In this document: positions 1 through 12,940 of the stretch, one piece after another
Layout: each line of letters opens with the position of its first letter
How positions within the stretch are numbered: the first letter of the stretch is position 1
Virus record (IMG/VR): IMGVR_UViG_3300045988_172454
From: a virus
DNA length: 12,940 bases
Strand: one strand, 5' to 3'
The notes under the pieces: model-generated
Told to the model about the DNA's origin: nothing
What the model saw: the letters and a program-made list of their open reading frames with translations, nothing else
The model's database searches: none
Made by a program: the position numbers and the translations under genes

Positions 1-120
1 AAATGCATAACCATAAATACATAAATACATAAATATGTATATACATAAATACATAAATACATAAATACATAAATACATAAATATGTATATACATAAATAC
101 ATAAATATGTATATAAATAT
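1..120. repeat. Left inverted terminal repeat. A 12-bp unique terminus, AAATGCATAACC, is followed by a tandem array of an 8-bp unit (ATAAATAC) and a 16-bp unit (ATAAATATGTATATAC, containing the 14-bp palindrome TATGTATATACATA)
   Basis: Positions 1-30 are the exact reverse complement of 12911-12940. Beyond that the two ends carry similar 8-bp and 16-bp unit arrays with different unit order and number. The genome begins with AAA, as expected for protein-primed sliding-back initiation. Confidence 0.8.
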
Positions 121-145
121 TTATTTAAATATTTACAAATAATTA

Positions 146-174
146 TTGACATTATATTATATATATGTTAATAT
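146..174 (+). promoter_or_regulatory. Sigma-A-type promoter for the late/structural operon: -35 TTGACA (146-151), 17-bp spacer, extended -10 TGtTAATAT (166-174)
   Basis: The -35 hexamer is an exact consensus match. The 17-nt spacer and the TGn-extended -10 lie 18 nt upstream of the first ATG, which has the RBS GAGGTGA at 181-187. Confidence 0.6.
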
Positions 175-191
175 ATACGTGAGGTGATATT

Positions 192-434
192 ATGAAGAAC
201 ATTAACAACACAATTGATAATATACTGATTGCACTTGGTGCAACTTGGAGTTTAGCTAATATTCAAACACTACTTGGCATTATAGTGTTAGTTTTCCAAA
301 TTGTATGGCTTACATTTAAACTAATTGTCAAAATCATAAATAAGATTAAAACAAAGGGTAATTTAGATGAGTTAGACAAAGAAGTTGATAAAATAACTGA
401 TAAGATTAATTCAATAGGTGATGAAGATGAGTAA
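192..434 (+). CDS. Small membrane protein, holin-like (80 aa). It has two predicted hydrophobic helices followed by a Lys-rich and then acidic coiled-coil tail
   Basis: The ORF has a strong RBS (GAGGTGA). The hydrophobic segments ILIALGATWSLANI and LLGIIVLVFQIVWLTFKLIV are followed by KIINKIKTKGN and a C-terminus ending ...DEDE. This topology and size match class II holins, but no lysin partner is evident. Confidence 0.45.
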   Translation: MKNINNTIDNILIALGATWSLANIQTLLGIIVLVFQIVWLTFKLIVKIINKIKTKGNLDELDKEVDKITDKINSIGDEDE

Positions 435-1428
435 CACAATAAATAACCGCAAGGAATGGATTTTAGCAAGTTGTAAAAACGTACTTCAAGATAAAGATTA
501 TTTAATTAAACATATGATACTTCATATGCTTAACAAAACAACAAAAATGTTTAAATATACAGGTTTACCTGACACAATCAATGTAAAAGATTTAGAAACT
601 CAGTTACAAGTAAACGGTTTTGCTATTTGGAAAGAAGTTGAAGGAAAATTATACACATTTACTGGTGGATTAGGCGGTGAACCTAATGTATACTATCTAC
701 CAACTAAAGCTATAATATCAAATCCTGCTCTAAGATATACTGCTTCACTTGAGATAGATAAAGAATGTGTTGTTATGCTTAATGATTATTACTATGACGG
801 ATTAATGCCAATTAATAATAAATACGCTTCATTAATAACTGAAGGTGAATTATCGCTTAAATACGCTATGATAAATGCTAGAATTCCATCATTAGTACAA
901 GCTGATAATGATAATACCGCTGAGTCCGCTAAATCATTTTTTAATAAAATTGAGCGTGGTGAAGATTATGGTATTATTACTTCTAAAGAGTTTTTTGATG
1001 GTATAAAAACACACGATTTTCTAAAGATACAAAATATAAAAGATTTAATAGAAGTAGTACAATATTTAAAAGGTAGTTGGTACAATGAAATTGGTATACG
1101 TTCAACATTCAATATGAAGCGTGAAGCAATCAATAGTAGTGAAAGTTCATTAAATGATGATATATTAAGACCTTTTGTTGATGTTATGTTAGAATGTAGA
1201 AAAAATGCTTTAGAGAAGATTAATAAAATGTTTAATACAAATATAACAGTTGAACTTGATAGTGTATGGCTTTCAACACAAGTTGACGAAGATTTATCAC
1301 AAGATTTAAAAGTGGCTCAAGTAGAACAACTTGAGAAAACTAATGATAAAAAAGAAGAAAATAAAGGTGGTGAAGACAATGAAACTGTGGGAAACCCTGA
1401 CGGACGAAGAGAAAATACAACTGATTAA
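427..1428 (+). CDS. Head-tail connector / portal protein (phi29 gp10-like upper collar). The ORF track starts it at GTG 418; I prefer ATG 427 because of the upstream AGGTGA RBS
   Basis: The segment FKYTGLPDTINVKDLETQLQVNGFAIWKE...GGLGGEPNVY matches, from memory, phi29 gp10 [28 protein letters not shown]...GALSGQRDVY. The size of about 333 aa is also similar to gp10 (309 aa). Confidence 0.7.
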   Translation: MSNTINNRKEWILASCKNVLQDKDYLIKHMILHMLNKTTKMFKYTGLPDTINVKDLETQLQVNGFAIWKEVEGKLYTFTGGLGGEPNVYYLPTKAIISNPALRYTASLEIDKECVVMLNDYYYDGLMPINNKYASLITEGELSLKYAMINARIPSLVQADNDNTAESAKSFFNKIERGEDYGIITSKEFFDGIKTHDFLKIQNIKDLIEVVQYLKGSWYNEIGIRSTFNMKREAINSSESSLNDDILRPFVDVMLECRKNALEKINKMFNTNITVELDSVWLSTQVDEDLSQDLKVAQVEQLEKTNDKKEENKGGEDNETVGNPDGRRENTTD

Positions 1429-2215
1429 TCGTGAAATTGTTGGTATTTTTTCAACAATGATTTTATCAGGTGATGATTATTATTCACTTGCTAATGATTT
1501 ATGTTTAGGGTATTATATGGAGCGGAGCGGACAAAAAACTATATCAAAAACATATCAATTAATGTTAGATACTATTAAAGACAATAAAATTACTAATGAA
1601 ACCGCGGAAAGTTTATTAGGAAAATTAATACGTGGTAAGTATTCTTATAAATGGACTAAGATATACAATGCGTTAATGAATAACGATTATAAAGTATTGG
1701 ATGAATATGCTTCAACTACTATTACTAAAGGTAATAATGTTGATGAAACAAATTATGCTTCTCAAGTTGGAAAAACAGGAGCAAATAAAGATGAAACAAT
1801 TTATAATACTACTAATGAAGATGATGGAACATCAGGTAGTAGTGAAGTTACAACTCGTAATACTGAAAATAATAATGATGTATATGGGTTCAACAGTGTA
1901 TCACCTGTAGCAGCAAACACTAATAATGAAGTAATTACTGAAAAAGTAGAGGGTGAAGCCTCTAAAAATACAACACATAATACATCTACTAAAACAGGAA
2001 CTGACACTAAAAACTTCACTATTGATGAAAATCAATCTAAAACAGGAAAAGATACTATTAATAAAACTATAGATGAAAATGAAAATGTAAATGGACGTTA
2101 CAAAACAGGTGCTGAATTAATTAATAAAGAACTTGATATGCGTGAAAAACAAATACTTTTCAACATATTCTATAGAGATATTGATAGTGTTGTAACTTTA
2201 CAAATATATGAATAA
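1379..2215 (+). CDS. Structural protein, possibly a lower collar / tail tube protein (phi29 gp11-like by position and size). The 294-aa ORF-track version (1331) is an in-frame upstream extension lacking an RBS
   Basis: ATG 1379 is preceded by AGGTGG (1365-1370). The gene follows the portal gene as gp11 follows gp10 in phi29. The protein is 278 aa with a helical N-terminus, a Thr/Asn/Glu-rich low-complexity middle and a conserved-looking C-terminus. Confidence 0.4.
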   Translation: MKLWETLTDEEKIQLINREIVGIFSTMILSGDDYYSLANDLCLGYYMERSGQKTISKTYQLMLDTIKDNKITNETAESLLGKLIRGKYSYKWTKIYNALMNNDYKVLDEYASTTITKGNNVDETNYASQVGKTGANKDETIYNTTNEDDGTSGSSEVTTRNTENNNDVYGFNSVSPVAANTNNEVITEKVEGEASKNTTHNTSTKTGTDTKNFTIDENQSKTGKDTINKTIDENENVNGRYKTGAELINKELDMREKQILFNIFYRDIDSVVTLQIYE

Positions 2216-2230
2216 AGGAGTGATTAAAAA

Positions 2231-2509
2231 ATGCAAAAAGGCGGTTATCAAATAATCGATTTAGAAAATTGGAAGTTTACAACAACTAAAGGTGCTCCTG
2301 TTGCTAAAACACAAAAAGGAGTATATGCCCTTATAAAAGGGACTAGAAAAGTAATAATGTTAAGTGGAATTAATCTTGATGGAAAAGAGTTACACGACAT
2401 TTTCATTGAAGTAACACTAAACACTACTACTTATGAAGCAACAATTTATAGTAATTATAAATTAACAATTACTAATACAGACGTTGTTACAATTGAGGCT
2501 TTAAAATAG
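2231..2509 (+). CDS. Hypothetical small beta-rich protein (92 aa) immediately upstream of the capsid gene. It may be a capsid-associated or decoration protein. It does not look like a helical scaffolding protein
   Basis: The ORF has an AAAGGAG RBS and a Thr/Val/Ile-rich composition. It occupies the position of phi29 gene 7 but with a different character. Confidence 0.45.
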   Translation: MQKGGYQIIDLENWKFTTTKGAPVAKTQKGVYALIKGTRKVIMLSGINLDGKELHDIFIEVTLNTTTYEATIYSNYKLTITNTDVVTIEALK

Positions 2510-2525
2510 AAAGGAGATATAAAAT

Positions 2526-3692
2526 ATGAAAGTAGAACAAGCCTATGAATTTACAAATTATGCAACAAAAGAGGCTATTGGTGAAGTAGTAATTCTTAAA
2601 GAGGATTTATCAAACATAGTTGATGTTGGTGACGCTATTTTTAATGCTAATGCTTATGATAAATACGTTCACGCTTTAGTAAATAGAATTGGTAGAACTA
2701 TATTTGTAAATAGAGTATATCAAGGTAGTGCACCAAGTGTATTAATGGATGGTTGGGAATATGGTTCCGTTTTACAAAAAGTATCAGGTGCATTACCTGA
2801 AGCAAAAGTTAATGAAACGTGGGAATTACAAGACGGACAAAGTTATGACCCACATATCTTCCACGCTCCAAAAGGTATTGTTGTTAAGTTTTATAATGAC
2901 TATGTAACATTTGAAGTTGATATGTCATTTACTGAAGAACAATTAAAGCAAAGCTTTATCAATGCTAATGAGTTAAACGGATTTATAAGTATGCTTTATA
3001 CTCTTGTTGAAAACTCATTAACTGTTAAAATTGATGAATTAATACGTAGAACAATTAACAATATGATTGGTGAAACATTATATGATGATTATGCTTCAGG
3101 TACTGTATTTAATAATAAATCAGGAGCGAAAGCTATTAACTTATTATATTTATATAATCAAACAAAAGCTGAAGCTGACCAATTAACAGCTACAAATTGT
3201 ATCACAAATCCTGATTTTATTCGCTATGCGTCATACATTATCAAATTAACATTTGATAGACTACATACTATGTCAACAATATTTAATATAGGTAATCAAC
3301 CAAGATTTACACCTAAGGACTTATGCCATATTGTACTATTAACTGATTTTGCAAGTGGTGCGGATGTATTTTTACAAAGTGACACTTTCCATAATGAATT
3401 ATCAGCTTTACCAAAGAGTGAGATTGTTTCATATTGGCAAGGTAGTGGAACTGACTTTGGATTTAACAGTGTATCTAAGATAGATATTAAAACTGCTGAT
3501 GGAAATGACGTAGCAACAACGGGTATATTAGGAGTAATGTTTGATAGAAACGCATTAGGTGTATGTAACACACAAAGAAAAGTTACTTCACAATGGACTC
3601 CTAATGCTGAGTTCTTCACAAACTTTTATAAATACAAAGCAGGGTTCTTTAATGATTTAAATGAAAACTTTGTAGTGTTCTTTGTTGCATAA
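2526..3692 (+). CDS. Major capsid protein (phi29 gp8-like)
   Basis: It has the strong RBS AGGAGA with an 8-nt spacer. The segment DKYVHALVNRIGRTIFVNRV resembles phi29 gp8 NDFITSLVDRIGLVVIRQ (recalled from memory). At 388 aa it is the longest non-tail structural ORF and is followed by a hairpin plus T-run. Confidence 0.65.
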   Translation: MKVEQAYEFTNYATKEAIGEVVILKEDLSNIVDVGDAIFNANAYDKYVHALVNRIGRTIFVNRVYQGSAPSVLMDGWEYGSVLQKVSGALPEAKVNETWELQDGQSYDPHIFHAPKGIVVKFYNDYVTFEVDMSFTEEQLKQSFINANELNGFISMLYTLVENSLTVKIDELIRRTINNMIGETLYDDYASGTVFNNKSGAKAINLLYLYNQTKAEADQLTATNCITNPDFIRYASYIIKLTFDRLHTMSTIFNIGNQPRFTPKDLCHIVLLTDFASGADVFLQSDTFHNELSALPKSEIVSYWQGSGTDFGFNSVSKIDIKTADGNDVATTGILGVMFDRNALGVCNTQRKVTSQWTPNAEFFTNFYKYKAGFFNDLNENFVVFFVA

Positions 3693-3700
3693 TTAATTAA

Positions 3701-3748
3701 GTGATAGAAGTAAAGAGTATAAGATTTACTCTATACTCTATCACTTTT
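3701..3748 (+). terminator. Imperfect hairpin plus T-run downstream of the capsid gene, a candidate partial terminator or attenuator. Arms GTGATAG/CTATCAC and AGAGTA/TACTCT, then TTTT
   Basis: The outer 7-bp stem and inner 6-bp stem are followed by TTTTAATATT. It lies between the capsid stop (3692) and the next start (3772). Confidence 0.4.
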
Positions 3749-3771
3749 AATATTAGAAAGGATGTGAAAAA

Positions 3772-5556
3772 ATGGCAAAAGTATTAGATATACAAGAAAT
3801 AACATTACCATCAGCGTTAAATAGTACACAAACAAGTGGATATTATTACAATGGTTATTATTATATTAATACTTATAATAAGATATATAAATATGATTAT
3901 ATTAATAATGTTTTAACTATTTTATATAACAAATCAACTGAGAGTTATTATTGTTTAGGAATAAATGACAATATATATAGTTTTTATTATAATCAAACAG
4001 CAAGACAAGGTGATAATTATGTTTTTAACATTATTTTATATGTTTATAACATCACTAATAATACATATACTGAGCTAGGTAGTTCAAATTGTCCTTTTGT
4101 TGTTTATGGACACGAAATTGTATCTTTAGGTATCAATATGTTTTCATTTGATGGTAAAAAAATATATATATGTAATAGTATGTTTGAATATAAATCAACA
4201 TCAAATGGTTATACAAATTTTTATAGTAGATTAATTTATCATTGTTATAATATTGACACAAATAGTTTTACATATAATACTAAGGGTGGAACGGATAATG
4301 GATATATACCTTGTATAACACAACCTATTATATATAATAATAAATATTATTACAATATGACAAAATATAATGAAATACTAAATAATACATATAATATCTA
4401 TAGAAAAAATTTAGGATTCATAGATGTATTCATTGATAGTTGGGGTGATGAGTTCCTACAAATGAAAAACCTTTCCTCTTTAGATTATGATATAAGATAT
4501 AATGCCATTATGAAAAAAGAAGATGGTATTTATTATTTAATTGGTGGATATCTTAATGATAGTACAGTTAATAGAAAACTATATGAACTTAATTTAACTT
4601 CTCAAACTTTAACTGAGACAACATACGTATTACCTGAAGATTTTAGAGCTGTTAATGCGTGGTTTGTACAAGGTGAAAATGAAGGCTTTATATTTACTAA
4701 AACTAAAGCATATAAGTTTAGTTTTATTGAATATAATAATATTTATAACATTAGTAATAGTAAAGGTGATTTTATATATCAAACATTAACTGAACAATCA
4801 CCAATTAGTAAATTAAAGTTTACACAATCAGGTGATAATATTGGATATAATTTTACAACAATAACAGGTGATGTAACAGGAATATATACTCCACAAATAC
4901 CTAGTGGTTATAAATTAATAGGTTATTCACCTTCACCTAATTCAACAAAAGCAATAATACCTTTAGATACTGAAATTACCTATAATGTATTAGAAGATTT
5001 TACTTTCTATGAAGTGTATGGTAAATATCGTCCTATATATACTCCTTTTAGTATAAAACTTTATCAAAATAAAGCTGAAGCAAATAGAGTAGATAAAACA
5101 AATTATATCACTCTTGTTAAAGAGGTGTTAGGTGTTTTACGTGAGTCAACATCAATAATTGATTTTGCAGTTGTTCTAGAATTAGATACTTTCCCTAATT
5201 TTAACTATGTTTATATAGAAATATTTAATAGATATTACTTTGTAAGTGATATAGTATCCGTTAATAAAAATATATGGGAAGTGTCATTAAGTTGTGATGT
5301 ACTAATGAGTTATAAAGACGCTATTAATGCTTGTACCGGTTTTGTTGATAGAAACGAAAATACTTATAATTTATTAATAGTAGATGATAAATTACCTTTA
5401 AAACAAGGACAAACAATAACTACTGCTTTTGTGAATAATACATTATTTGATGATATTCAAGGAACATATGTTTTACAAGGATTACTTGTTACTCAAGGTG
5501 ATATTGTTACACCTCAAACACAAACAACTGAAACTACAACGAAGGAGGATAAATAA
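3772..5556 (+). CDS. Tail fibre / receptor-binding protein candidate (594 aa). The N-terminal half is extremely Tyr/Asn-rich with Kelch- or beta-propeller-like repeats
   Basis: Repeated Y/N/G motifs include GYYYNGYYYI, IYSFYYNQ, GKKIYICNS and EDGIYYLIGGYLND. Its size is comparable to the phi29 gp9 / appendage class. It is translationally coupled to the next gene by a TAATG overlap. Confidence 0.45.
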   Translation: MAKVLDIQEITLPSALNSTQTSGYYYNGYYYINTYNKIYKYDYINNVLTILYNKSTESYYCLGINDNIYSFYYNQTARQGDNYVFNIILYVYNITNNTYTELGSSNCPFVVYGHEIVSLGINMFSFDGKKIYICNSMFEYKSTSNGYTNFYSRLIYHCYNIDTNSFTYNTKGGTDNGYIPCITQPIIYNNKYYYNMTKYNEILNNTYNIYRKNLGFIDVFIDSWGDEFLQMKNLSSLDYDIRYNAIMKKEDGIYYLIGGYLNDSTVNRKLYELNLTSQTLTETTYVLPEDFRAVNAWFVQGENEGFIFTKTKAYKFSFIEYNNIYNISNSKGDFIYQTLTEQSPISKLKFTQSGDNIGYNFTTITGDVTGIYTPQIPSGYKLIGYSPSPNSTKAIIPLDTEITYNVLEDFTFYEVYGKYRPIYTPFSIKLYQNKAEANRVDKTNYITLVKEVLGVLRESTSIIDFAVVLELDTFPNFNYVYIEIFNRYYFVSDIVSVNKNIWEVSLSCDVLMSYKDAINACTGFVDRNENTYNLLIVDDKLPLKQGQTITTAFVNNTLFDDIQGTYVLQGLLVTQGDIVTPQTQTTETTTKEDK

Positions 5557-6710: not shown

Positions 6711-7804
6711 TGAAAGAAAAATATTACACACTTAATAACATTCTTACTTATAATGCTGATTATAATATAATATATGGTGAAAGAAGTAATGGTAAAACAA
6801 CAGCAGTTTTGAGATACGCTTTAGAAGATTATATAAAAAGTAATTATATCAATCAACTTGCGATTGTTCGTAGATGGGAAGAAGATTTTAAAGGAAAAAA
6901 CGGAAGTCAAATGTTTGAAAGTATTGTTAATTTGGGATGGGTTGAAGAACTTACTAAAGGTAAATATAACGCTATCTATTACTATTCTCAAAGGTGGTAT
7001 CTAGCATTTTATAATGATGGTGAAAAAACTTTACAAGAAGAAAAACCTTTTGCCTTAGGTTTCTCAATTACTAGTGAAGAACATTATAAATCAACATCAT
7101 ATCCTAATATTAAGAATATATTATTTGATGAGTTTATCACAAGACAATATTATCTACCTGAAGAGTTCGTCAAGTTTCAAAATCTTTTATCAACTCTTAT
7201 TAGGTTAAAGAAAGATGTTAAAATATTTATGTGTGGTAATACGATAAATAAATACTGTCCATACTTTGCGGAAATGGGTTTATCAGGTGTTAAAAAACAA
7301 GTTAAAGGAACGATTGATTTATACACATATGGTGAAAGTACATTAAAAGTTGCTGTTGAATATAGTGACTTTCCATCTAAGAAAAAAGCAAGTAATAAAT
7401 ACTTTGCTTTCAATAATCCTAAATTACAAATGATAACTCACGGTGGATGGGAAATTGATATTTACCCTCACTTACCGCATAAATACCTTCCAAAAGATAT
7501 ATTATATCAATTCTTTATTCTTTTTGATAATGAAAAATTACACGGTAATATAATAAGTGTAGATGATACAATTTTTCTATATATTCATAGGAAAACAACA
7601 CCTATTAAAGAGAATAGTGAATACCTTATCTATCAACAACAACCTGATTACAGGCGAAATTATAGAACCAATATTTTAAAACCTTATAGTAAAGTTGATA
7701 AATATATCACAAATCTAATAGTTAATAAAAAAATCTTTTATCAAGATAATGAAGTTGGTGAGATTATGAATAACTATTTGAAATGGTGTATTTCAGGTAA
7801 ATAA
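6710..7804 (+). CDS. DNA packaging (encapsidation) ATPase, phi29 gp16-like
   Basis: Walker A GERSNGKT corresponds to phi29 GARGIGKS. Walker B ILFDEF corresponds to phi29 IVFDEF. Its 364 aa compare with about 332 for gp16, and it is the last gene of the + unit as in phi29. Confidence 0.85.
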   Translation: MKEKYYTLNNILTYNADYNIIYGERSNGKTTAVLRYALEDYIKSNYINQLAIVRRWEEDFKGKNGSQMFESIVNLGWVEELTKGKYNAIYYYSQRWYLAFYNDGEKTLQEEKPFALGFSITSEEHYKSTSYPNIKNILFDEFITRQYYLPEEFVKFQNLLSTLIRLKKDVKIFMCGNTINKYCPYFAEMGLSGVKKQVKGTIDLYTYGESTLKVAVEYSDFPSKKKASNKYFAFNNPKLQMITHGGWEIDIYPHLPHKYLPKDILYQFFILFDNEKLHGNIISVDDTIFLYIHRKTTPIKENSEYLIYQQQPDYRRNYRTNILKPYSKVDKYITNLIVNKKIFYQDNEVGEIMNNYLKWCISGK

Positions 7805-7830
7805 AAAAGATAGTAGAAATACTATCTTTT
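7805..7830. terminator. Bidirectional intrinsic terminator between the convergent ATPase and polymerase genes: AAAAGATAGTA-GAAA-TACTATCTTTT
   Basis: A perfect 9-11 bp stem (7805-7815 pairs with 7820-7830) carries a GAAA tetraloop. A T-run follows on the + strand (TTTTATTTAT) and a U-run on the - strand (complement of AAAAAA 7803-7808). It overlaps the last codons of the polymerase gene. Confidence 0.7.
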
Positions 7831-9957
7831 ATTTATATAACTTGATTTAACACCCATAATAAGTTTTATAAACTCATTATCTAATCCTAAAACATATCCG
7901 GTAGGCTCCATATGTACTCCTGATAACTCAAGATACTTTCCTTTGTTGCCAAGATAATCTATTACTTCACCTTGCATTTCATCATCAATATATGTATGGC
8001 AAAGTTTACCGCTACCTTGTTTTTTCACACCATTATCATTATAAACAGGTGGAAACTCTAATTCATTTTCAAATGCTTTAAATATCTTATCATTAGTTTT
8101 AAATCTACTTCTAAGATAATTAGCACCATTACTTTTAGCAACTCCTGCTATAGTGATATTAATTTCACCGTTTTTTTCAATCATATACCTCTTAGCTCCT
8201 AAAGTTTTAAATCTATCATACATACCTTCATAGTCCCATACTCCTAAAGGCTTTTCAATTCCTTTGATAGTCTTTGGTGAGGCTTTTTTAACATCTATGT
8301 TATAATGTGATAAACATTTATGTATCTTTTCAGTAATACGATTATTATATTTTTCAATGTAATCTTTATGTTTATCAATGTTTAAAACCTTGATACTATC
8401 AGTATCGCTGTATATGTAATCATTTTTAAACTCTAATATACCGGTAAATAAATTACGTCTAGCGTATGCTGTTATCCATACTCCCCAAGGATAATAAAGA
8501 AATCTAGAAAAACTATCATTATATTTTTTTAAATAATCTTCAATTTGATAATTTTCTAATTTTTCTTCATACCATTCATCTTGTAGGGACAAATATTCAT
8601 TAATATCTCTACAGGGGTCGGTTACACACATACCATAGCAAGAATTAATCATACCTTTAGAAACTTGATATTCAGCCTCTTTTCCTTCAACATTCTTTAA
8701 TGTTGTTTTGTCAAAATATAATTTAAGTATCATTTCAATAAAACTTTTAGGTAAATACCCTTTGTAGAATTTTTTAAAATGACTAATCTTCATAGAGTCC
8801 CAAGTATACATTTGTGATACTATAAAGAAATCTTGTTCCGTAAAACTTATTTTTAACAAACTAGCTTCTACAACTCTACCATTATTTAATATATAGTGTT
8901 CTATTTTACTACATCTTGAAAATGATATATAATTTTCAAACTCGCTTGTTGCCCGGATATTTTCAAACTCAATATCAAACATACAACAATAAGTTTTTAA
9001 TAAAGTGATGAACTGTTTGCCACTTTCAATCTTAACAGGTATTGGTTTACTCATCGGAAACTTTTCACTAAGCATTACTGCTGGATACGAAGATGAAAAA
9101 TCGAAACTATGTACCTTTTCAACAACTTTTCCAACATAATTGACATTAGCGTGTGTAAATCCACCTGTATATGTTCTTTTAAGTTGTTTATAGTCATCAA
9201 TATCAATTTTTAATAATCTCATTAAGTGGCTATATTCATATCGTTCTTCACCTTTTAAACACACTGTTCTACAAGCATTACGGACATATCCTGTTTTAGT
9301 TAGGGGTAATCTAGTAATATCACCTAATCTTTCTATCTCTTCTTGAATAAATGCCATTACTACTAATCCATCATTCAGGATATACCCCCATTCAGTATCC
9401 GTAAGAGGTGTTTGTGAATGTCTAATTAGTTCATAATCTAAGTCTCCAACTTTTTTATTTACTTTATATTTAGTAAGGTTTTCACCTAATTTTTCTAGTG
9501 AATACCCCGAAAGTAAATAAGAACAGCGAAACTCTATACCTATTTCAGCTAGTGCATAAAGAGGTTTCCTTGTATCAGTTGCAAAAACTTTGCACCAATC
9601 AAACATTTTTCTAAACCATTGGAACTCATACGCTAAATTATGCACATAAATTATCATCTTATTAATTATAGATAATTCGTAATATTCACATACTCTTTGT
9701 AGAACTTTGAACCATTCATCCCACGTTCTACCTCGTATGCATTTTCCGTTTATTCCAAAAACCCAAGCATACATAGTACATTGTTTTTGGTTTTCTTCAT
9801 TATAAAAGGAACTAGCTTCAATATCAAATACTGAAGCTACATTCAATACATTACAATTTCTTGTTACTATCCAATCAAAAGGCTCTAATAGTTCTTCAAT
9901 ACTATTAAAGAAGTTTTTTGAGTTCATCGGTGAGTAAAATTGAAAGTTCGTCTTCAT
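7822..9957 (-). CDS. Protein-primed family-B DNA polymerase (phi29 gp2-like, 711 aa). I start it at ATG 9957 (RBS AAGGTGA) rather than the GTG at 9966
   Basis: Exonuclease motifs are Exo I FDIEAS, Exo II YVHNLAYEF and Exo III YILNDG. The YxGG motif is YTGGF, motif A is DFSSSYP, motif B is KGMINSCYG and motif C is YSDTDSI. A KxY motif is present as KRY. Confidence 0.9.
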   Translation of the reverse strand: MKTNFQFYSPMNSKNFFNSIEELLEPFDWIVTRNCNVLNVASVFDIEASSFYNEENQKQCTMYAWVFGINGKCIRGRTWDEWFKVLQRVCEYYELSIINKMIIYVHNLAYEFQWFRKMFDWCKVFATDTRKPLYALAEIGIEFRCSYLLSGYSLEKLGENLTKYKVNKKVGDLDYELIRHSQTPLTDTEWGYILNDGLVVMAFIQEEIERLGDITRLPLTKTGYVRNACRTVCLKGEERYEYSHLMRLLKIDIDDYKQLKRTYTGGFTHANVNYVGKVVEKVHSFDFSSSYPAVMLSEKFPMSKPIPVKIESGKQFITLLKTYCCMFDIEFENIRATSEFENYISFSRCSKIEHYILNNGRVVEASLLKISFTEQDFFIVSQMYTWDSMKISHFKKFYKGYLPKSFIEMILKLYFDKTTLKNVEGKEAEYQVSKGMINSCYGMCVTDPCRDINEYLSLQDEWYEEKLENYQIEDYLKKYNDSFSRFLYYPWGVWITAYARRNLFTGILEFKNDYIYSDTDSIKVLNIDKHKDYIEKYNNRITEKIHKCLSHYNIDVKKASPKTIKGIEKPLGVWDYEGMYDRFKTLGAKRYMIEKNGEINITIAGVAKSNGANYLRSRFKTNDKIFKAFENELEFPPVYNDNGVKKQGSGKLCHTYIDDEMQGEVIDYLGNKGKYLELSGVHMEPTGYVLGLDNEFIKLIMGVKSSYINKR

Positions 9958-10456
9958 CGTCTTCACCTTCCAATGCTTCTAAAGTATCATCATACGCATT
10001 AATAATATCTTCAATAATTGCTTCTTCAGTTTTTCCTTGATACATCATATCAAGTATAGTTCCCCATACTTCATATTTATATTTCTCAAAAGTACCTGAT
10101 GTTATCTCATACTGTTTACCATATATTTCCCAAAACTTTTTTTTCGCTTCAGGCGATAATGTTTTCAAGTTATTTTTTATAGGTTCTAATTTTCTTTGTA
10201 CCTCTTTAGCGCCTCTAACAGTACTTGATTTTAATTTTTCTATGTATGATAAATCTCTATAAAGATTTTCTAACTCTTTTCTAGAAAGTTCACTCAGTCT
10301 TTTAGGAATATTTAAACTTCTATATTTTTCTACTGCATATTGAGGTGTTGTTTCTTTATCATATTTCTCAATACGCTCAATTCGTCTTGATACATTTTTA
10401 ATAAGACGCCTAGTCTTTTTTCTAAGCGTCTTATCGTCTCTAGCAAAACTATTCAT
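9905..10456 (-). CDS. Terminal protein candidate (183 aa), immediately upstream of the polymerase and overlapping it by 53 nt
   Basis: Its position is that of phi29 gene 3, next to the polymerase gene. The N-terminus is strongly basic (KTLRKKTRRLIKNVSRRIERIEK). The C-terminal tail is acidic (EALEGEDDEDELS) and could mimic DNA in the polymerase template channel. No alignment could be run. Confidence 0.5.
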   Translation of the reverse strand: MNSFARDDKTLRKKTRRLIKNVSRRIERIEKYDKETTPQYAVEKYRSLNIPKRLSELSRKELENLYRDLSYIEKLKSSTVRGAKEVQRKLEPIKNNLKTLSPEAKKKFWEIYGKQYEITSGTFEKYKYEVWGTILDMMYQGKTEEAIIEDIINAYDDTLEALEGEDDEDELSILLTDELKKLL

Positions 10457-10465
10457 ATTTTACCT

Positions 10466-10846
10466 CTAAAATGGTAAATCTTTTTCATTAAATATGTTTT
10501 CTTTATCATCACCAAATACTGACTCAAGTTTTGCTTCTCTAATTTGTTTCAATTCTTCTTCAGTATATTTAGAAAGTTCAACAACTTTATTAATCCAAAT
10601 TGTAGGATTACCTTGCTTTTTCACACCATTTTTATCAGTGTAGAAATTTCCTTTTTCAATAGATACGTCATCAATATTAATTGTCATATGATACATACCT
10701 TTTTCTTTAGGTGTAGTTAAACATTCTCTAGTAAACTTCACTTTAAACCATTTAGTTTTCACTAGTGTAGTAAAAGCTACAAATGCTTTTCCATCGTTCA
10801 TTTTAATTTCCTTTGCATAAATTGTTAATTTTTGTGTTTTTTCCAT
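10466..10846 (-). CDS. Hypothetical early protein (126 aa), possibly an ssDNA-binding protein
   Basis: It has the RBS AAGGAG. It is Lys-rich and beta-rich (KWFKVKFTRE, TIWINKVVEL) with an acidic C-terminus. Its position upstream of the terminal-protein and polymerase genes matches that of SSB or DBP genes in phi29-like early operons. The assignment is weak. Confidence 0.3.
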   Translation of the reverse strand: MEKTQKLTIYAKEIKMNDGKAFVAFTTLVKTKWFKVKFTRECLTTPKEKGMYHMTINIDDVSIEKGNFYTDKNGVKKQGNPTIWINKVVELSKYTEEELKQIREAKLESVFGDDKENIFNEKDLPF

Positions 10847-10915
10847 AATTTTAATCTCCTTTATTTAATATTTTTTGTTTTTCTTAAACACATTTCAAAT
10901 TGATATAATCTTTTT

Positions 10916-11122
10916 TTAATAACGTCCACGATTTTCACAAATCTCAATCACTGCTTTAATAAACTCAAGCTCAGCTTCATAAAGCTCTAAATCCTTTTCT
11001 TGAATGCTTGATAAAATATCATAGATTTTAACATCTTTCAGCTGATTAATTTTCTCATAGAGTTCTATTCTATGTTTTTCTAAGAAGTTCTTTAATGTCG
11101 GCTTTCCGTCTTTATATGCCAT
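10916..11122 (-). CDS. Hypothetical early protein (68 aa, helical with a coiled-coil-like character)
   Basis: It has the RBS GGAGGTGA and its start overlaps the upstream stop (TAATG at 11120-11124). Confidence 0.45.
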   Translation of the reverse strand: MAYKDGKPTLKNFLEKHRIELYEKINQLKDVKIYDILSSIQEKDLELYEAELEFIKAVIEICENRGRY

Positions 11123-11346
11123 TATATCACCTCCTTCCTCGTTAAGAATATACCATTAGGTTTAAAGATATATATTATATCTTCTTCTTTAATGCTTTCA
11201 AATGATTTAATATTATTAGGGTCAAGGTCAATCAATATTACTCTATCACCTACTTTTAAATATGACTTTCCATCTTTAGTTCTAAATGTCATACCTGATT
11301 TTATAGCTTTTTTATCTTTAATAATTTCATATCTTGTATCTTCCAT
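11122..11346 (-). CDS. Hypothetical early protein (74 aa), possibly an AbrB/MazE-like DNA-binding regulator
   Basis: It has the RBS AAGGAG with a 6-nt spacer. The segment KSYLKVGDRVILIDLD resembles the swapped-hairpin pattern of AbrB/MazE (a weak call). It is the first gene downstream of the 360-bp regulatory region. Confidence 0.4.
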   Translation of the reverse strand: MEDTRYEIIKDKKAIKSGMTFRTKDGKSYLKVGDRVILIDLDPNNIKSFESIKEEDIIYIFKPNGIFLTRKEVI

Positions 11347-11492
11347 ATATACTCCTTATAATTTAATTTAATTCGGATTTTTATTTTAGGGTCTCACTTT
11401 TTTCAAAGTTTTCAACCAATTTCTTAATATTTTTATTCTAAAACTTTTTCAATTTTCTCAAACACGAAACTTTTTTGAAAAGTTTTTGTAGG

Positions 11493-11535
11493 GCTGAAGA
11501 GGGTTTTGGTGAGGGTCGATTTTTTTGCCCTTCAG
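11493..11535 (-). ncRNA. Candidate structured RNA element (GC-rich stem-loop) in an otherwise AT-rich intergenic region. The strand assignment is tentative
   Basis: The window GGGCTGAAGAGGG...GCCCTTCAGG is about 48% GC against a genome average of about 27%. The stem is 8 bp on the minus-strand RNA, because the G.U wobble there is an A-C mismatch on the plus-strand RNA, and the loop is a 25-nt A-rich sequence. It is followed on the minus strand by an AU hairpin (11467-11485). Confidence 0.3.
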
Positions 11536-11606
11536 GTTTTGGCTTGAATATTTGAACATATGAACACTTCATCATATGAACATATTTTCATATGTCTTTT
11601 CTTTGG

Positions 11607-11672
11607 TTTATTTATGTATTTACATATTTGTGTATATACATATTTATGTATTTATATAAATACATATTTATG
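11607..11672. repeat. Internal partial copy of the terminal-repeat units (8-bp and 16-bp units in right-end orientation, plus one inverted unit that creates the 16-bp palindrome GTATTTATATAAATAC)
   Basis: The sequence GTATTTAC.. GTATATACATATTTAT GTATTTAT ATAAATAC matches the right-end ITR units GTATTTAT and GTATATACATATTTAT. Confidence 0.7.
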
Positions 11673-11705
11673 ATGTCCCTTTCTTATTTCCTTAAGTTTT
11701 AGAAA

Positions 11706-11966
11706 TTAAGCGATTCTCTCAACTTGCTTTTGAGAGAAGAAGAATGCTTTTGATTTGAAGAATGAGCCATCGTTCACTTCTTCAGAATCTACTTCAGTTT
11801 TAACTTTTGTTTTCTTTGGAAACCAAATCATACACGCCATTACTGATTTCTCGCCCTTCTTGACTTGATAGCCAAGACGCTTCCAGTCTTTATAAGTTTT
11901 AAGTATTAAATCCTCATCTAGTCCTAATTCTTTTTTTGCTGTTTCGATAATTTGATAATTAGTCAT
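11706..11966 (-). CDS. Hypothetical early protein (86 aa). The ORF-track 99-aa version is an upstream extension
   Basis: The RBS AAGGAGGA lies 8 nt upstream of ATG 11966. The start overlaps the upstream stop (ATGA at 11963-11966), suggesting translational coupling. The protein is basic, Lys-rich and acidic at its C-terminus, so it is a candidate small DNA-binding protein. Confidence 0.5.
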   Translation of the reverse strand: MTNYQIIETAKKELGLDEDLILKTYKDWKRLGYQVKKGEKSVMACMIWFPKKTKVKTEVDSEEVNDGSFFKSKAFFFSQKQVERIA

Positions 11967-12160
11967 TTTTTTTGTCCTCCTTTTAAATAATAATTTTTGA
12001 CACATAATAATTCCATCACGTCAGCATTTTCATTATTTTTTATAAATTCATCATATGTAATAGTTTTAACCGCATTAATGAGTATTAAGTTACCATCCAA
12101 CCCCTCAACGTAGTAATTACCATAGTCATCAGTATAGATTTTTATTGTGCTTTTTTTCAT
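11963..12160 (-). CDS. Hypothetical early protein (65 aa), small and acidic
   Basis: It has the RBS AGGAGTGA with a 7-nt spacer and is coupled to the downstream gene. Confidence 0.5.
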   Translation of the reverse strand: MKKSTIKIYTDDYGNYYVEGLDGNLILINAVKTITYDEFIKNNENADVMELLCVKNYYLKGGQKK

Positions 12161-12177
12161 ATTGTATCACTCCTTTT

Positions 12178-12549
12178 TTAATAATAATAATAATCAACAT
12201 CTACTACGTCATCATAATCAAAATTATTACATTGAATTAAATCTTCATTTACATTATATAGTTCTATTGATAAAGTTGTAACAATATACCCGCCATAAGA
12301 TTTATTAAACTCTTTTGCATTACTCTTTACTACTTCTAAACATTCAAATAAATAATTTGTTGCGGTCAAATGTGTAATATATGGTAAATCATTAATATTA
12401 TTATTATTAATTTTTTCTCTAAAAATAACCCATTCATCACCACATCCGCTATTTGTAAAACTTCCTTGCTTACATACTATATTAACGTATCCTCCTTTCT
12501 TGATTGTTTCTCCAATTACTTTTTGTTGTCTGTCATTAAAATACATCAT
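12178..12549 (-). CDS. Hypothetical early protein (123 aa, Cys-containing), the first gene of the right-end early unit. The 137-aa ORF-track version reads through ITR-type repeats and is an artefactual extension
   Basis: The RBS AAGGAGGA (complement of 12558-12563) lies 8 nt upstream of the ATGATG at 12549. The protein contains CKQGSFTNSGCGDEW. Confidence 0.5.
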   Translation of the reverse strand: MMYFNDRQQKVIGETIKKGGYVNIVCKQGSFTNSGCGDEWVIFREKINNNNINDLPYITHLTATNYLFECLEVVKSNAKEFNKSYGGYIVTTLSIELYNVNEDLIQCNNFDYDDVVDVDYYYY

Positions 12550-12567
12550 TTTATAATCCTCCTTGAT

Positions 12568-12604
12568 GTTTATGTATTTATGTATATACATATTTATTTA
12601 TATG
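12568..12604. repeat. Second internal partial copy of the terminal-repeat units (GTATTTAT followed by GTATATACATATTTAT), in the 5' leader of the first early gene
   Basis: Positions 12574-12597 match the right-terminal units exactly. Confidence 0.7.
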
Positions 12605-12605
12605 T

Positions 12606-12629
12606 GTATCTGAAATCTCTATCAGATAC
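12606..12629. promoter_or_regulatory. Perfect 8-bp inverted repeat GTATCTGA-N8-TCAGATAC at the predicted start of the early transcript. It is a candidate operator or 5'-leader hairpin
   Basis: The inverted repeat is seen directly in the sequence. It lies immediately downstream of the candidate -10 (12636-12641, minus strand). Confidence 0.4.
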
Positions 12630-12635
12630 GCTAAT

Positions 12636-12665
12636 ATTATAAACCTTAACATATTTTGAAATCAA
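12636..12665 (-). promoter_or_regulatory. Candidate right-end early promoter on the minus strand: -35 TTGATT, 18-nt spacer, -10 TATAAT
   Basis: The -35 is the complement of AATCAA at 12660-12665 and the -10 is the complement of ATTATA at 12636-12641. The orientation and position are right for driving the leftward early unit. Confidence 0.35.
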
Positions 12666-12828
12666 GAAAAATCGTAATGAAAACGGTTTCAGTCTTTATT
12701 TTGAGTTGTAATCGATTTTTATTTTTTACCTTTATAGTTTTATAGGGTATATATGAAAATTGATTATAACGCAAAATAGACGTCAAAAATCACATTTGTA
12801 TTTTTGGTTGTCTTTGTATGTTATCGTG

Positions 12829-12940
12829 TTTTATGTATATGTATATATGTATTTATGTATTTATGTATATACATATTTATGTATTTATGTATTTATGTAT
12901 ATATTTAATTATGTATTTATGTATTTATGGTTATGCATTT
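12829..12940. repeat. Right inverted terminal repeat (tandem 8-bp and 16-bp units plus the 12-bp unique terminus GGTTATGCATTT)
   Basis: Its reverse complement, AAATGCATAACC ATAAATAC ATAAATAC ATAATTAAATATATAC ATAAATAC ATAAATAC ATAAATATGTATATAC ATAAATAC ATAAATAC.., matches the left end. Confidence 0.8.

What the first reader, a model, noticed from the sequence alone, without database searches (positions are those of the whole stretch)
1..12940. Complete miniature phi29-like protein-primed podovirus genome (12.9 kb) bounded by inverted terminal repeats
The window begins and ends with reverse-complementary termini that match exactly over 30 bp. Between them lies a complete set of phi29-type genes: connector, capsid, tail proteins, gp16-like ATPase, terminal-protein candidate and family-B polymerase with protein-priming motifs. 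At 12,940 bp it is several kb smaller than the Picovirinae I can recall. Those are about 16.5-20 kb; only Mycoplasma phage P1, about 11.7 kb, is in this range, and that host reads TGA as Trp. Here the coding capacity for tail and lysis functions appears minimal. Organisation is convergent (late genes left to right, early genes right to left, meeting at a bidirectional terminator), unlike phi29 itself.
Basis: partly seen in the sequence, partly recalled or inferred. Interest (0 to 1): 0.7.

Follow-up and report, generated by a model that had tools for sequence, protein, structure and literature searches.

The report
Small phi29-like gut phage genome
The window is a complete or nearly complete 12.9-kb genome of a tiny phi29-type bacterial virus that copies its linear DNA from a protein primer, but viruses of this size and type are already known, so it is a new member of a known group rather than a record-breaker.

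Summary
The two ends are reverse complements: 32 nt exact and about 110 nt at 89%. They are built from 8-bp ACATAAAT(A/C) units and start 5'-AAATG. Five independent assemblies of the same or related strains end within 0-4 nt of the right terminus. One 90%-identical strain shows the same architecture at both ends.

The genes between the ends were identified as follows:
- By Pfam/PHROG: upper collar (connector), phi29-type capsid, gp16-type packaging ATPase and a protein-primed family-B polymerase.
- By fold search: lower collar and the distal tail knob.
- By position and profile only: the terminal-protein candidate.

The layout is convergent, with an AT-rich hairpin between the ATPase and polymerase stops.

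The novelty argument fails. The closest cultured relatives are Astrithrvirus and satellite phage Phanie (11.2-11.9 kb; 43-53% aa identity). Amedibacillus phages are 12.3 kb, and a 2024 review lists over 2000 phi29-like entries, many of 11-14 kb. The window's own capsid and polymerase sequences are already in public databases, in clusters of about 200 variants on contigs of at most 13.3 kb.

Modest points of interest:
- No recognisable endolysin.
- A Kelch-like domain fused to the proximal tail-knob protein.
- A relocated ATPase gene.

Verdict: new member of a known kind.

The parts
1..114 (.). Left inverted terminal repeat. Nt 1-32 are the exact reverse complement of the right end. It starts 5'-AAATG and is then an array of 8-bp ACATAAAT(A/C) units. 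Presumed replication origin.
   Evidence: L052 confirms the array from nt 84. L053 shows the same architecture in a related strain.
146..174 (+). Sigma-70-like promoter (TTGACA, 17 nt, TG-TAATAT) directly after the left ITR and upstream of the first rightward gene.
   Evidence: This is a consensus match only. Promoter-like sites are not enriched over shuffles in this AT-rich sequence.
192..434 (+). 80-aa membrane protein: hydrophobic residues about 10-48, then a charged C-terminus. Holin-like candidate.
   Evidence: Sequence. Weak matches to DUF7442 'phage membrane protein' (E 0.046) and a PHROG holin (E 0.5). Homologues sit at the same position in L015, L016 and L026. Function is inferred.
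427..1428 (+). Upper collar / connector (portal), phi29 gp10 type.
   Evidence: Pfam Phage_connector E 4e-14; phrog_2038 E 4e-37.
1379..2215 (+). Lower collar / proximal tail tube protein (phi29 gp11 type), 278 aa. This is full length, unlike the shortened 184-aa version in Astrithrvirus.
2231..2509 (+). 92-aa conserved protein always encoded just upstream of the capsid gene, in the position of phi29 scaffold gene 7. Function unknown.
   Evidence: The profile finds 21 homologues, all between lower collar and MCP, and duplicated in L019, L021 and L043. No Pfam, PHROG or NCBIfam hit.
2526..3692 (+). Major capsid protein, phi29 type.
   Evidence: Pfam Phi29_MCP E 6e-47, full length. 49-53% identical to Astrithrvirus-group MCPs and 71-74% to L015/L016.
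3772..5556 (+). 594-aa fusion protein. Residues 1-~420 are a variable Kelch-like beta-propeller, the presumed receptor-binding domain. [quoted passage not shown]
   Evidence: tblastn maps only residues ~426-550 onto the small tail gene of about 45 loci, including astrithr 7500-7811. The N-terminal part has 41 representatives in 1.84e9 proteins, all with the same architecture, some matching Kelch Pfam families. DNA 3775-4721 cannot be aligned between otherwise 95-97% identical strains.
5556..6710 (+). Distal tail-knob protein, equivalent to the C-terminal part of phi29 gp9.
6710..7804 (+). DNA-packaging ATPase, phi29 gp16 type. Last gene of the rightward operon; its start overlaps the preceding stop.
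   Evidence: Pfam Podovirus_Gp16 E 4e-14; phrog_2150 E 5e-23. It lies on the opposite strand in the closest relatives L015 and L016.
7805..7830 (.). AT-rich hairpin AAAAGATAGTA-GAAA-TACTATCTTTT between the converging ATPase and polymerase stop codons. Candidate bidirectional terminator.
   Evidence: Sequence. Fold z-score -4.7, 0 of 200 shuffles as stable. Not called by the terminator scan because it has only 2 G-C pairs.
7822..9957 (-). Family-B DNA polymerase of the protein-primed type.
   Evidence: Pfam DNA_pol_B_2; phrog_1907 E 6e-67. The only PDB sequence hit is phi29 DNAP 1XHX, E 5e-9. The alignment to phi29 122-501 is continuous through ExoIII (YILND), motif A (DFSSSYP), the TPR1 region, motif B (KGMINSCYG), a TPR2-position insertion, motif C (YSDTDS) and KxY.
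9905..10456 (-). Terminal-protein candidate, 183 aa, helical, with an acidic C-terminus. It overlaps the polymerase start.
   Evidence: The profile finds homologues in 25-28 loci, in every case the ORF directly upstream of the polymerase. These include astrithr gp02 and its Phanie counterpart, which the review PMC11476376 calls the p3 counterpart. There is a conserved [TS]-S-T-x2-G motif, with S78 in this protein. No Pfam or PDB match.
10466..10846 (-). 126-aa early protein, candidate single-stranded-DNA-binding protein. Its acidic C-terminal tail ends in DLPF.
   Evidence: Homologues in 9 loci lie in the early operon next to the TP gene and end in an acidic tail. No Pfam or PDB support. Inference only.
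10916..11346 (-). Two small early genes (68 aa at 10916-11122; 74 aa at 11122-11346) of unknown function.
   Evidence: ORFs with Shine-Dalgarno sites. No family hits.
11347..11705 (.). Non-coding gap of 359 nt inside the early unit. It holds a third, internal copy of the ITR-type 8-mer array (11609-11672) and TTCATATG palindromic repeats (11545-11594). Presumed regulatory region.
   Evidence: Gene callers find no gene here. Fold z -3.3 on the minus strand. Conserved only in near-identical strains. No Rfam hit.
11706..11966 (-). 86-aa ArdC-N-like ssDNA-binding domain protein, a possible anti-restriction early gene.
   Evidence: Pfam ArdcN E 2e-7, above the cut-off. PHROG anti-restriction protein E 2e-8.
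11963..12546 (-). Two right-end early genes (65 aa at 11963-12160; 122 aa at 12178-12546) of unknown function, in a hypervariable region.
   Evidence: Only 58-65% aa identity to strains that are otherwise 95-99% identical.
12636..12665 (-). Sigma-70-like promoter (TTGATT, 18 nt, TATAAT) for the leftward early unit.
   Evidence: Consensus match only.
12827..12940 (.). Right inverted terminal repeat. Its terminus is reproduced in five independent assemblies.

Best explanation
The window is the whole, or all but a few terminal bases, of the linear dsDNA genome of a virulent phi29-type podophage. It belongs to an uncultured lineage (window, L053, L015, L016) within the radiation that also contains Astrithrvirus.

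Proposed mechanism; the steps are inferred unless marked as shown.
- Replication. The 183-aa protein encoded upstream of the polymerase acts as terminal protein. The family-B polymerase links dAMP to it opposite an internal T of the 3'-TTTAC end, slides back on the AAA/TTT reiteration, and then replicates by strand displacement from both ITR origins. Shown: the ITRs, the polymerase family and its motifs, and the conserved gene pair.
- Transcription. Two promoters next to the ITRs drive converging units. The early unit runs right to left: anti-restriction-like gene, small genes, SSB candidate, TP candidate, polymerase. The late unit runs left to right: membrane protein, upper collar, lower collar, small protein, capsid, knob proteins, ATPase. 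They meet at a hairpin at 7805-7830.
- Packaging. The gp16-type ATPase packages the TP-capped DNA through the connector.
- Tail. The tail is a lower-collar tube plus a two-protein knob. The proximal knob protein carries a swappable Kelch-like domain that probably binds the receptor.
- Host. The host is probably an anaerobic gut Bacillota. The standard genetic code is used.
- Lysis. How the cell wall is breached is unknown.
For: ITR and termini.

Gene identities: polymerase motifs and TPR1/TPR2-position segments; tail folds; knob module.

TP family always next to the polymerase.

Completeness: about 92% coding. Homologues never occur on contigs longer than 14.3 kb. Eight related contigs of 11.2-13.4 kb carry their own ITRs of 55-180 nt.

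Relatives: polymerase 43-47% and MCP 49-53% identical to the Astrithrvirus group. The window, L053, L015 and L016 form one clade in both MCP and Pol trees.

Orientation: GC skew flips at about 7.5 kb. Hairpin.

Host:
- Strong GGAGG-type Shine-Dalgarno sites before nearly every gene; stops are TAA 12, TAG 3, TGA 1.
- Relatives are binned mostly with Clostridia, Acutalibacteraceae and Oscillospiraceae MAGs from ruminant, rabbit and horse guts.
- Relatives' endolysins carry SH3_3 or CW_7 wall-binding domains.
- The lower collar is full length, whereas the review PMC11476376 reports a shortened one in phages of Gram-negative hosts.
Against: - No sequence or profile similarity of the TP candidate to any known terminal protein. 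No covalent DNA-protein link can be shown from sequence.
- The outer 83 nt of the left ITR are supported only by the window. Two other assemblies have about 130 nt of bacterial-looking DNA at that end instead.
- No peptidoglycan hydrolase domain in any ORF, although six relatives carry one. An autonomous lytic cycle on a walled host is therefore not fully accounted for.
- The closest cultured group includes Phanie, which needs a helper phage (review PMC11476376, citing Pourcel 2024).
- MAG binning of a 13-kb phage contig is weak host evidence. Some relatives are binned with Methanobrevibacter, Bacteroidales or Vampirovibrio.
- The tail-knob fold match has low Z (about 5).
Confidence: 0.85

Rival explanations
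1. It is a helper-dependent (satellite-type) phi29-like phage, like Acinetobacter phage Aci01-2-Phanie. It builds its own capsid and short tail stub and replicates its own DNA. It needs a co-infecting phage for infectivity (tail attachment), for lysis, or for both.
For: The nearest cultured group contains Phanie, shown experimentally to need a helper myophage; the review suggests relatives may do the same (PMC11476376 sec. 2.6). The window shares the split tail knob. It has no recognisable endolysin or tail-tip lysin, whereas relatives do.
Against: - The window is only 43-53% identical to that group and has a different layout.
- Its distal knob protein lacks the extra Ig-like domains that the review discusses in connection with Phanie's chimeric virions with the helper tail.
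- It has its own receptor-binding-type Kelch domain, which is swapped between strains as expected for an autonomous phage.
- Other Astrithrvirus members were isolated as plaque formers on Salmonella.
- Several relatives also lack Pfam-detectable lysins, so a novel lysin is a simpler explanation.
Confidence: 0.08
2. The host lacks a peptidoglycan wall (a Mollicutes-like gut bacterium using the standard code, such as Acholeplasma- or RF39-type lineages). This would explain the missing endolysin and the very low GC, as in Mycoplasma phage P1. The genome is otherwise as in the best explanation.
For: GC is 27.6%. There is no lysin domain in the window, L015 or L016. Some relatives are binned with Bacilli or 'Candidatus Onthovivens' MAGs (L036 and L038). 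TGA is used as a stop, which fits only Mollicutes lineages that kept the standard code.
Against: The nearest relatives are binned with Eubacteriales and Clostridia MAGs. The lower-collar tube is full length, the form the review associates with thick walls (PMC11476376). Cultured Amedibacillus phage AD70P2 has similar GC (26.7%) and size on a walled Gram-positive host. No direct host link of any kind was obtained.
Confidence: 0.1
3. The left terminal repeat is partly an assembly artefact. The assembler joined right-end-type reads, or reads from a co-occurring strain, onto a left end that really ends inside the 8-mer array. The genome would then be slightly different in length and the '32-nt exact ITR' overstated.
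For: Window 1-83 is not reproduced in any other assembly. L052, L049, L050 and L004 all break at 84-156, and two carry foreign DNA there. The first 48 nt of the window's left end are identical to the right-end sequence of strain L050 over the bases that contig retains; its contig starts 4 nt in.
Against: The two arms differ after nt 32 (89% over about 110 nt), unlike a fold-back artefact. L053 independently shows 5'-AAATG plus inverted 8-mer arrays at both ends. ITRs are the rule in complete relatives. Even if true, this would not change what the element is.
Confidence: 0.1

Closest known systems
Astrithrvirus and allies (Salmonella phages astrithr/Astrid/assan, Pectobacterium DU_PP_III, Acinetobacter Aci01-2-Phanie, Vibrio K58 g2, Enterobacter Entb_47)
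   Same: - Genome size class of 10.4-11.9 kb, with ITRs.
- The same core genes at 43-53% aa identity: polymerase, ATPase, connector, capsid.
- The same TP-candidate family directly upstream of the polymerase.
- A tail knob split into two genes.
- No pRNA detected.
Sources.
   Different: - No nucleotide-level similarity.
- Astrithr is collinear (TP-Pol-ATPase-connector-MCP-tail-endolysin on one strand). The window is convergent, with the ATPase last in the late unit.
- The window has a full-length 278-aa lower collar against 184 aa.
- The window has a Kelch-like domain fused to the proximal knob protein.
- The window has no endolysin.
- GC is 27.6% against 37-40%.
- The window's host is probably gut Bacillota rather than Gammaproteobacteria.
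Uncultured herbivore-gut contigs L015 (CAYUTE010000161.1) and L016 (JAZQDA010000110.1), and strains L053, L049, L004, L050, L052
   Same: Same lineage. L015 and L016 have MCP 71-74%, ATPase 73-76% and Pol 62% identity. They share the same late-gene order, the TP and SSB candidates and the lack of an endolysin. The strains are 90-99.98% identical in DNA.
   Different: In L015 and L016 the ATPase gene is on the polymerase strand, so it is inverted relative to the window. Strains differ by a swapped N-terminal domain of the 594-aa tail protein and by a divergent right-end early region.
Bacillus phage phi29 (Salasmaviridae)
   Same: Protein-primed PolB, with the TPR1/TPR2-position segments aligned. 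Terminal AAA reiteration. Homologues of gp10, gp11, gp9, gp8 and gp16. The ATPase is the last late gene. The late unit converges on a leftward early unit at a terminator, as at the phi29 right end (phi29 organisation from established knowledge).
   Different: - phi29 is 19.3 kb with a 6-bp ITR.
- Its TP and polymerase are in a divergent left early operon.
- It has pRNA, head fibres, gp12 appendages, gp13 tail lysin, gp14 holin and gp15 endolysin. None of these was found here.
- Polymerase identity is only about 25%.
Amedibacillus phages AD70P2/AD70P3 (listed under Guelinviridae)
   Same: Cultured phi29-like phages of a Gram-positive gut anaerobe, with a genome of almost the same size (12.2-12.3 kb) and GC (26.7%).
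   Different: Distant: Pol 34% and MCP 27-29% identity. All main genes are on one strand.
Mycoplasma phage P1
   Same: Small (about 11.7 kb), presumed protein-primed podovirus. From my own knowledge; not tested here.
   Different: It is not among the 30 listed best polymerase matches and is absent from the capsid matches. The window uses TGA as a stop and needs no code-4 reading.

Membership tests
phi29-like (picovirus-type) protein-primed podophages | Family-B DNA polymerase of the protein-primed class, with exonuclease and polymerase motifs and the TPR1/TPR2 insertions | tested here: met
   Pfam DNA_pol_B_2. phi29 DNAP is the only PDB sequence hit. The alignment to phi29 122-501 is continuous, covering ExoIII, motifs A, B and C, KxY and the TPR1 and TPR2 positions. 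The Exo I/II region was read by eye only (DIE; HNLAYE).
phi29-like (picovirus-type) protein-primed podophages | Terminal protein gene, and protein covalently bound to the 5' ends | tested here: inconclusive
   A conserved 183-aa family lies next to the polymerase in 25-28 loci, with weak pairwise homology to astrithr gp02. It has no similarity to known TPs. Covalent linkage cannot be tested with these tools.
phi29-like (picovirus-type) protein-primed podophages | Linear genome with inverted terminal repeats and a terminal base reiteration for sliding-back | tested here: met
   32-nt exact and about 110-nt imperfect ITR; 5'-AAA at both ends. Termini are reproduced in other assemblies.
phi29-like (picovirus-type) protein-primed podophages | phi29-type capsid, upper collar, lower collar and tail knob proteins | tested here: met
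phi29-like (picovirus-type) protein-primed podophages | gp16-type packaging ATPase without a nuclease-type large terminase | tested here: met
   Pfam Podovirus_Gp16 E 4e-14; phrog_2150.
Salasmaviridae (phi29 proper) | Prohead RNA (pRNA) gene | tested here: not met
   No Rfam match at E<=1 on either strand. The only sizeable non-coding region (11347-11705) is not conserved beyond near-identical strains. A very divergent pRNA cannot be excluded.
Genus Astrithrvirus | Genus-level nucleotide similarity to A. astrithr (ICTV practice: about 70% over the genome) | tested here: not met
   Megablast of the whole window against 50,697 phage records found no match. Protein identities are 39-53%.
Genus Astrithrvirus | Collinear gene order TP-Pol-ATPase-connector-MCP-knob-endolysin | tested here: not met
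   The window is convergent, with the ATPase at the end of the late unit and no endolysin.
Helper-dependent satellite phages of the Phanie type | Infectivity requires a helper phage's tail | not testable with these tools
   Known only from experiment (review PMC11476376; the primary paper PMC11264900 is not held). Sequence shows a shared split knob, but no Ig-domain-rich distal protein.

The most novel reading that the evidence does not exclude
This endolysin-less lineage (window, L015, L016) cannot complete an infection cycle on its own. Like its cultured relative Phanie, it would be a protein-primed 'satellite' podophage that depends on a co-infecting phage for entry or lysis. That would extend the lifestyle from one Acinetobacter isolate to a widespread group in anaerobic animal guts. 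A variant of the same idea is that it infects wall-less bacteria.
Probability: 0.12. Interest if true: 0.6.

Novelty: new member of a known kind. Interest (0 to 1): 0.3.

Why it matters
- It adds a well-delimited genome to the little-studied 11-14 kb branch of phi29-like phages, which seems abundant in herbivore guts. Both termini are defined and nearly every gene is assigned.
- It illustrates how freely this branch reshuffles modules: three gene layouts, an inverted ATPase gene, and swapped receptor domains.
- The compact polymerase and terminal-protein pair and the repeat-built origins could interest people who use protein-primed replication systems.
- The absence of any recognisable wall-degrading enzyme is a small open question.
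- None of this overturns current understanding.

Tried and rejected
- Whole-window megablast against INPHARED phages: no hit.
- Rfam at E<=1 for pRNA or any other RNA: only a spurious snoRNA hit. ARAGORN: no tRNA.
- The 359-nt non-coding gap as a pRNA-like gene. Folding gives z -3.3 on the minus strand and -1.7 on the plus strand. The structure is mostly local palindromes, and there is no conservation outside near-identical strains. Rejected as evidence for a structured RNA.
- TP candidate against Pfam and against PDB sequences by profile: only coiled-coil noise.
- SSB candidate against Pfam and PDB: nothing. The label stays an inference.
- Endolysin hunt in every window ORF with Pfam, PHROGs and NCBIfam at lenient thresholds, and in the large tail proteins of L015, L016, L020 and L031: nothing.
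- PDB sequence search with the tail proteins and their profiles: nothing. Only the fold search helped.
- Code-4 (Mycoplasma) reading: not needed. All genes are open in table 11, and TGA serves once as a stop.
- The primary paper on Phanie (PMC11264900) is not in the library, so its content is cited through the review.
- Host assignment by CRISPR spacers could not be attempted.

Full report
OBSERVATION

The window's first 32 nt are the exact reverse complement of its last 32 nt. Similarity continues without gaps for about 108-114 nt at about 89%. Both arms start 5'-AAATGCATAACC. They are then arrays of an 8-bp unit, with period 8 and 12 copies at 12-107 and 12830-12929. The 10-mer ACATAAATAC, allowing one mismatch, occurs 27 times against 4.7 expected from shuffles.

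The right terminus is reproduced in independent assemblies:
- L049 (ENA ERZ19693221; 99.98% identical over window 96-12940) ends on the same nucleotide.
- L052 (ERZ780043) ends 2 nt short.
- L004 (IMG/VR) and L050 (ERZ501704) end 4 nt short.

L053 (ERZ15609801; 13,283 bp; about 90% identical) begins 5'-AAATG at both ends, followed by inverted arrays of the same 8-mer. The architecture is therefore not peculiar to one assembly.

The weak point is the outer 83 nt of the left arm, which only the window shows. The other contigs break inside the array, at window 84, 96, about 121 and 156.

Nothing suggests an internal fragment. About 180 homologous protein clusters never sit on a contig longer than 14.3 kb. 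A JGI contig of exactly 12,940 nt carries the polymerase cluster. Eight related contigs of 11.2-13.4 kb have their own ITRs of 55-180 nt.

GENE CONTENT

Pfam and PHROGs identify four core genes:
- Connector, 427-1428.
- Phi29-type capsid protein, 2526-3692, E 6e-47.
- gp16-type packaging ATPase, 6710-7804.
- Protein-primed family-B polymerase, 7822-9957 on the minus strand; DNA_pol_B_2; phrog_1907 E 6e-67.

The only solved structure matching the polymerase by sequence is phi29 DNA polymerase. A pairwise alignment runs without a break from phi29 residue 122 to 501. It covers ExoIII (YILND), motif A (DFSSSYP), the TPR1 region, motif B (KGMINSCYG), an insertion at the TPR2 position, motif C (YSDTDS) and KxY.

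Two proteins with no family hit were modelled from alignments of database homologues.

The 594-aa product of 3772-5556 is a fusion.
- Only residues about 426-550 are conserved. They map onto the small tail gene that follows the capsid gene in about 45 relatives, including astrithr gp09. The review PMC11476376 equates that gene with the N-terminal part of the phi29 knob.
- Residues 1-419 have just 41 representatives among 1.84 billion proteins, all with the same architecture. Several match Kelch-repeat families.
- DNA 3775-4721 cannot be aligned between strains that are otherwise 95-97% identical. This is the usual signature of a receptor-binding domain.

TERMINAL PROTEIN

The 183-aa ORF at 9905-10456 (minus strand) overlaps the polymerase start. 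It matches astrithr gp02 weakly (E 3e-4, 25% identity over the full length). A profile built from it and a few homologues finds 25 ORFs in the collected loci at E <= 1e-6, and 28 after iteration. In every case the hit is the ORF directly upstream of the polymerase. The family shares a motif F-x4-[TS]-S-T-x2-G; its serine is Ser78 here and is present in 26 of 29 sequences. It has no detectable similarity to known terminal proteins. The assignment is therefore positional and family-level. It agrees with the review, which calls the Astrid/Phanie counterpart p3-like. Ser78 as the priming residue is my speculation.

OTHER GENES
- The 126-aa early protein belongs to a family encoded next to the TP gene in nine loci and has an acidic tail. 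'SSB' is a guess with no database support.
- The 86-aa product of 11706-11966 is an ArdC-N-type ssDNA-binding domain (Pfam 2e-7; PHROG anti-restriction 2e-8).
- The 80-aa first late protein is a membrane protein and a possible holin.
- There is no tRNA and no Rfam family, including pRNA.

EXPRESSION SIGNALS
- Nearly every gene is preceded by a strong GGAGG-type ribosome-binding site.
- Stop codons are TAA 12, TAG 3 and TGA 1, so the standard code applies.
- Sigma-70-like promoters lie just inside each ITR (146-174 on the plus strand; 12665-12636 on the minus strand). Such matches are not enriched in this AT-rich DNA.
- The two units converge. An 11-bp-stem hairpin lies between the ATPase and polymerase stops (7805-7830; z -4.7). 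It has only two G-C pairs, so 'bidirectional terminator' is plausible but not shown.
- GC skew changes sign at the same place.

WHAT IT IS RELATED TO

There is no nucleotide-level match among 50,697 phage records. By protein, the nearest cultured phages are the Astrithrvirus group: Salmonella astrithr, Astrid and assan, Pectobacterium DU_PP_III, Acinetobacter Phanie, Vibrio K58 g2, Enterobacter Entb_47 and a Shigella phage. Their polymerases are 43-47% and their capsids 49-53% identical to the window's, and their genomes are 10.4-11.9 kb. Amedibacillus phages AD70P2 and AD70P3 (12.2-12.3 kb; 26.7% GC) are more distant.

Uncultured relatives are numerous.
- There are 12 IMG/VR loci, and 34 loci in GTDB-species genomes. 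The latter are nearly all 11-14.7 kb contigs binned into MAGs from ruminant, rabbit and horse guts.
- Rough neighbour-joining trees of capsid and polymerase both put the window with L053, L015 and L016. These sit inside a star-like radiation that also contains astrithr and Phanie.
- The exact capsid and polymerase sequences of the window are already held by NCBI, JGI, ENA and Logan, in 90%-identity clusters of 207 and 178 members.
- The 2024 review (PMC11476376) counts more than 2000 phi29-like database entries and describes clusters of 11-14 kb genomes.

LAYOUT

A tblastn survey shows three arrangements in the radiation:
- Collinear Pol-ATPase-connector-capsid-tail, as in Astrithrvirus.
- Convergent, with the ATPase on the polymerase strand. 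This is the arrangement in most gut contigs, including the nearest relatives L015 and L016.
- The window's form, with the ATPase as the last gene of the late unit. L018 and L039 are similar.

The ATPase gene has therefore been inverted or relocated in the window's lineage. The review already notes frequent rearrangement in phi29-like phages.

LYSIS AND HOST

Six relatives encode a recognisable endolysin after the tail genes:
- L020: ELLD plus SH3_3.
- L024: GH25.
- L036: Amidase_2.
- L010: CHAP plus CW_7.
- L018: NlpC/P60.
- L013: ELLD.

The window, L015 and L016 have none. This holds in every window ORF at lenient thresholds and in the large tail proteins of L015 and L016 at the standard cut-off. 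No unassigned ORF longer than 126 aa remains in the window. Several other relatives also lack Pfam-detectable lysins, so an unrecognised enzyme is the simplest explanation.

Two less ordinary readings remain open.
- Helper dependence. Phanie was shown experimentally to be non-infectious unless it attaches to a helper myophage tail (review).
- A wall-less host.

The evidence favours gut Bacillota as host, but it is indirect: Shine-Dalgarno usage, the MAG bins, the wall-binding domains in relatives' lysins and the full-length lower collar.

VERDICT

It is a new member, at roughly genus or subfamily distance, of a known kind.

Noticed in passing
L049 1-136 (joined at window 96); L050 12568-12699 (joined at window ~121): Two near-identical contigs from other samples carry about 130 nt of unrelated, higher-GC bacterial-looking DNA in place of the left ITR. 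One encodes a lipoprotein signal peptide (MKKLAICITLIAAILTGC). The other encodes the start of a response-regulator receiver domain (ILLIEDD...). These are probably chimeric reads extending a contig that breaks in the repeat array, but this is unproven.
   Followed up: partly
window 6710-7804; L015 7653-8738 (-); L016 8039-9142 (-): The packaging ATPase gene is on the late (+) strand in the window but on the polymerase strand in its closest relatives. Three different gene layouts coexist in the radiation.
   Followed up: yes
window 3775-4721: The N-terminal part of the 594-aa tail protein is replaced by unalignable sequence in strains L004, L050 and L052, which are otherwise 95-97% identical. 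This is a receptor-domain swap.
   Followed up: partly
window 11727-12897: The right-end early region, which includes the ArdC-N-like gene, is only about 82% identical in DNA to strains that are 95-97% identical elsewhere. The gene products are 58-79% identical at the amino-acid level. This looks like a hypervariable host-takeover or anti-defence module.
   Followed up: partly
window 11609-11672 and 12569-12609: Extra internal copies of the ITR-type 8-mer array lie in the non-coding gap of the early unit and over the start of the rightmost early gene. They may be binding sites for one protein acting at both origins and early promoters, as p6 does in phi29. Untested.
   Followed up: no
window 9905-10456 (residues 72-82); alignment of 29 homologues: The protein family encoded upstream of the polymerase shares an F-x4-[TS]-S-T-x2-G motif across the whole radiation, including astrithr and Phanie. 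The conserved serine is a candidate priming residue.
   Followed up: partly
L010 10962-11570; L008 10727-11215: Contigs with the Astrithrvirus-type collinear layout and about 30% GC encode a CHAP plus CW_7 endolysin in L010. L008 has a 162-aa ORF at the same position that was not scanned. This type of endolysin is typical of Gram-positive hosts, so the layout is not confined to phages of Gram-negative bacteria.
   Followed up: partly
L039 (Methanobrevibacter MAG), L027 (Vampirovibrio), L033 and L044 (Bacteroidales/Paludibacteraceae), L047 (Gastranaerophilales): Complete phage genomes of this group are binned into MAGs of very different taxa, including an archaeon. These are probably binning errors, as the review also argues for 'archaeal' phi29-like entries.
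   Followed up: no
L019 2205-2737; L021 2041-2576; L043 2778-3310: The small gene upstream of the capsid gene (window 2231-2509) is tandemly duplicated in some relatives.
   Followed up: no
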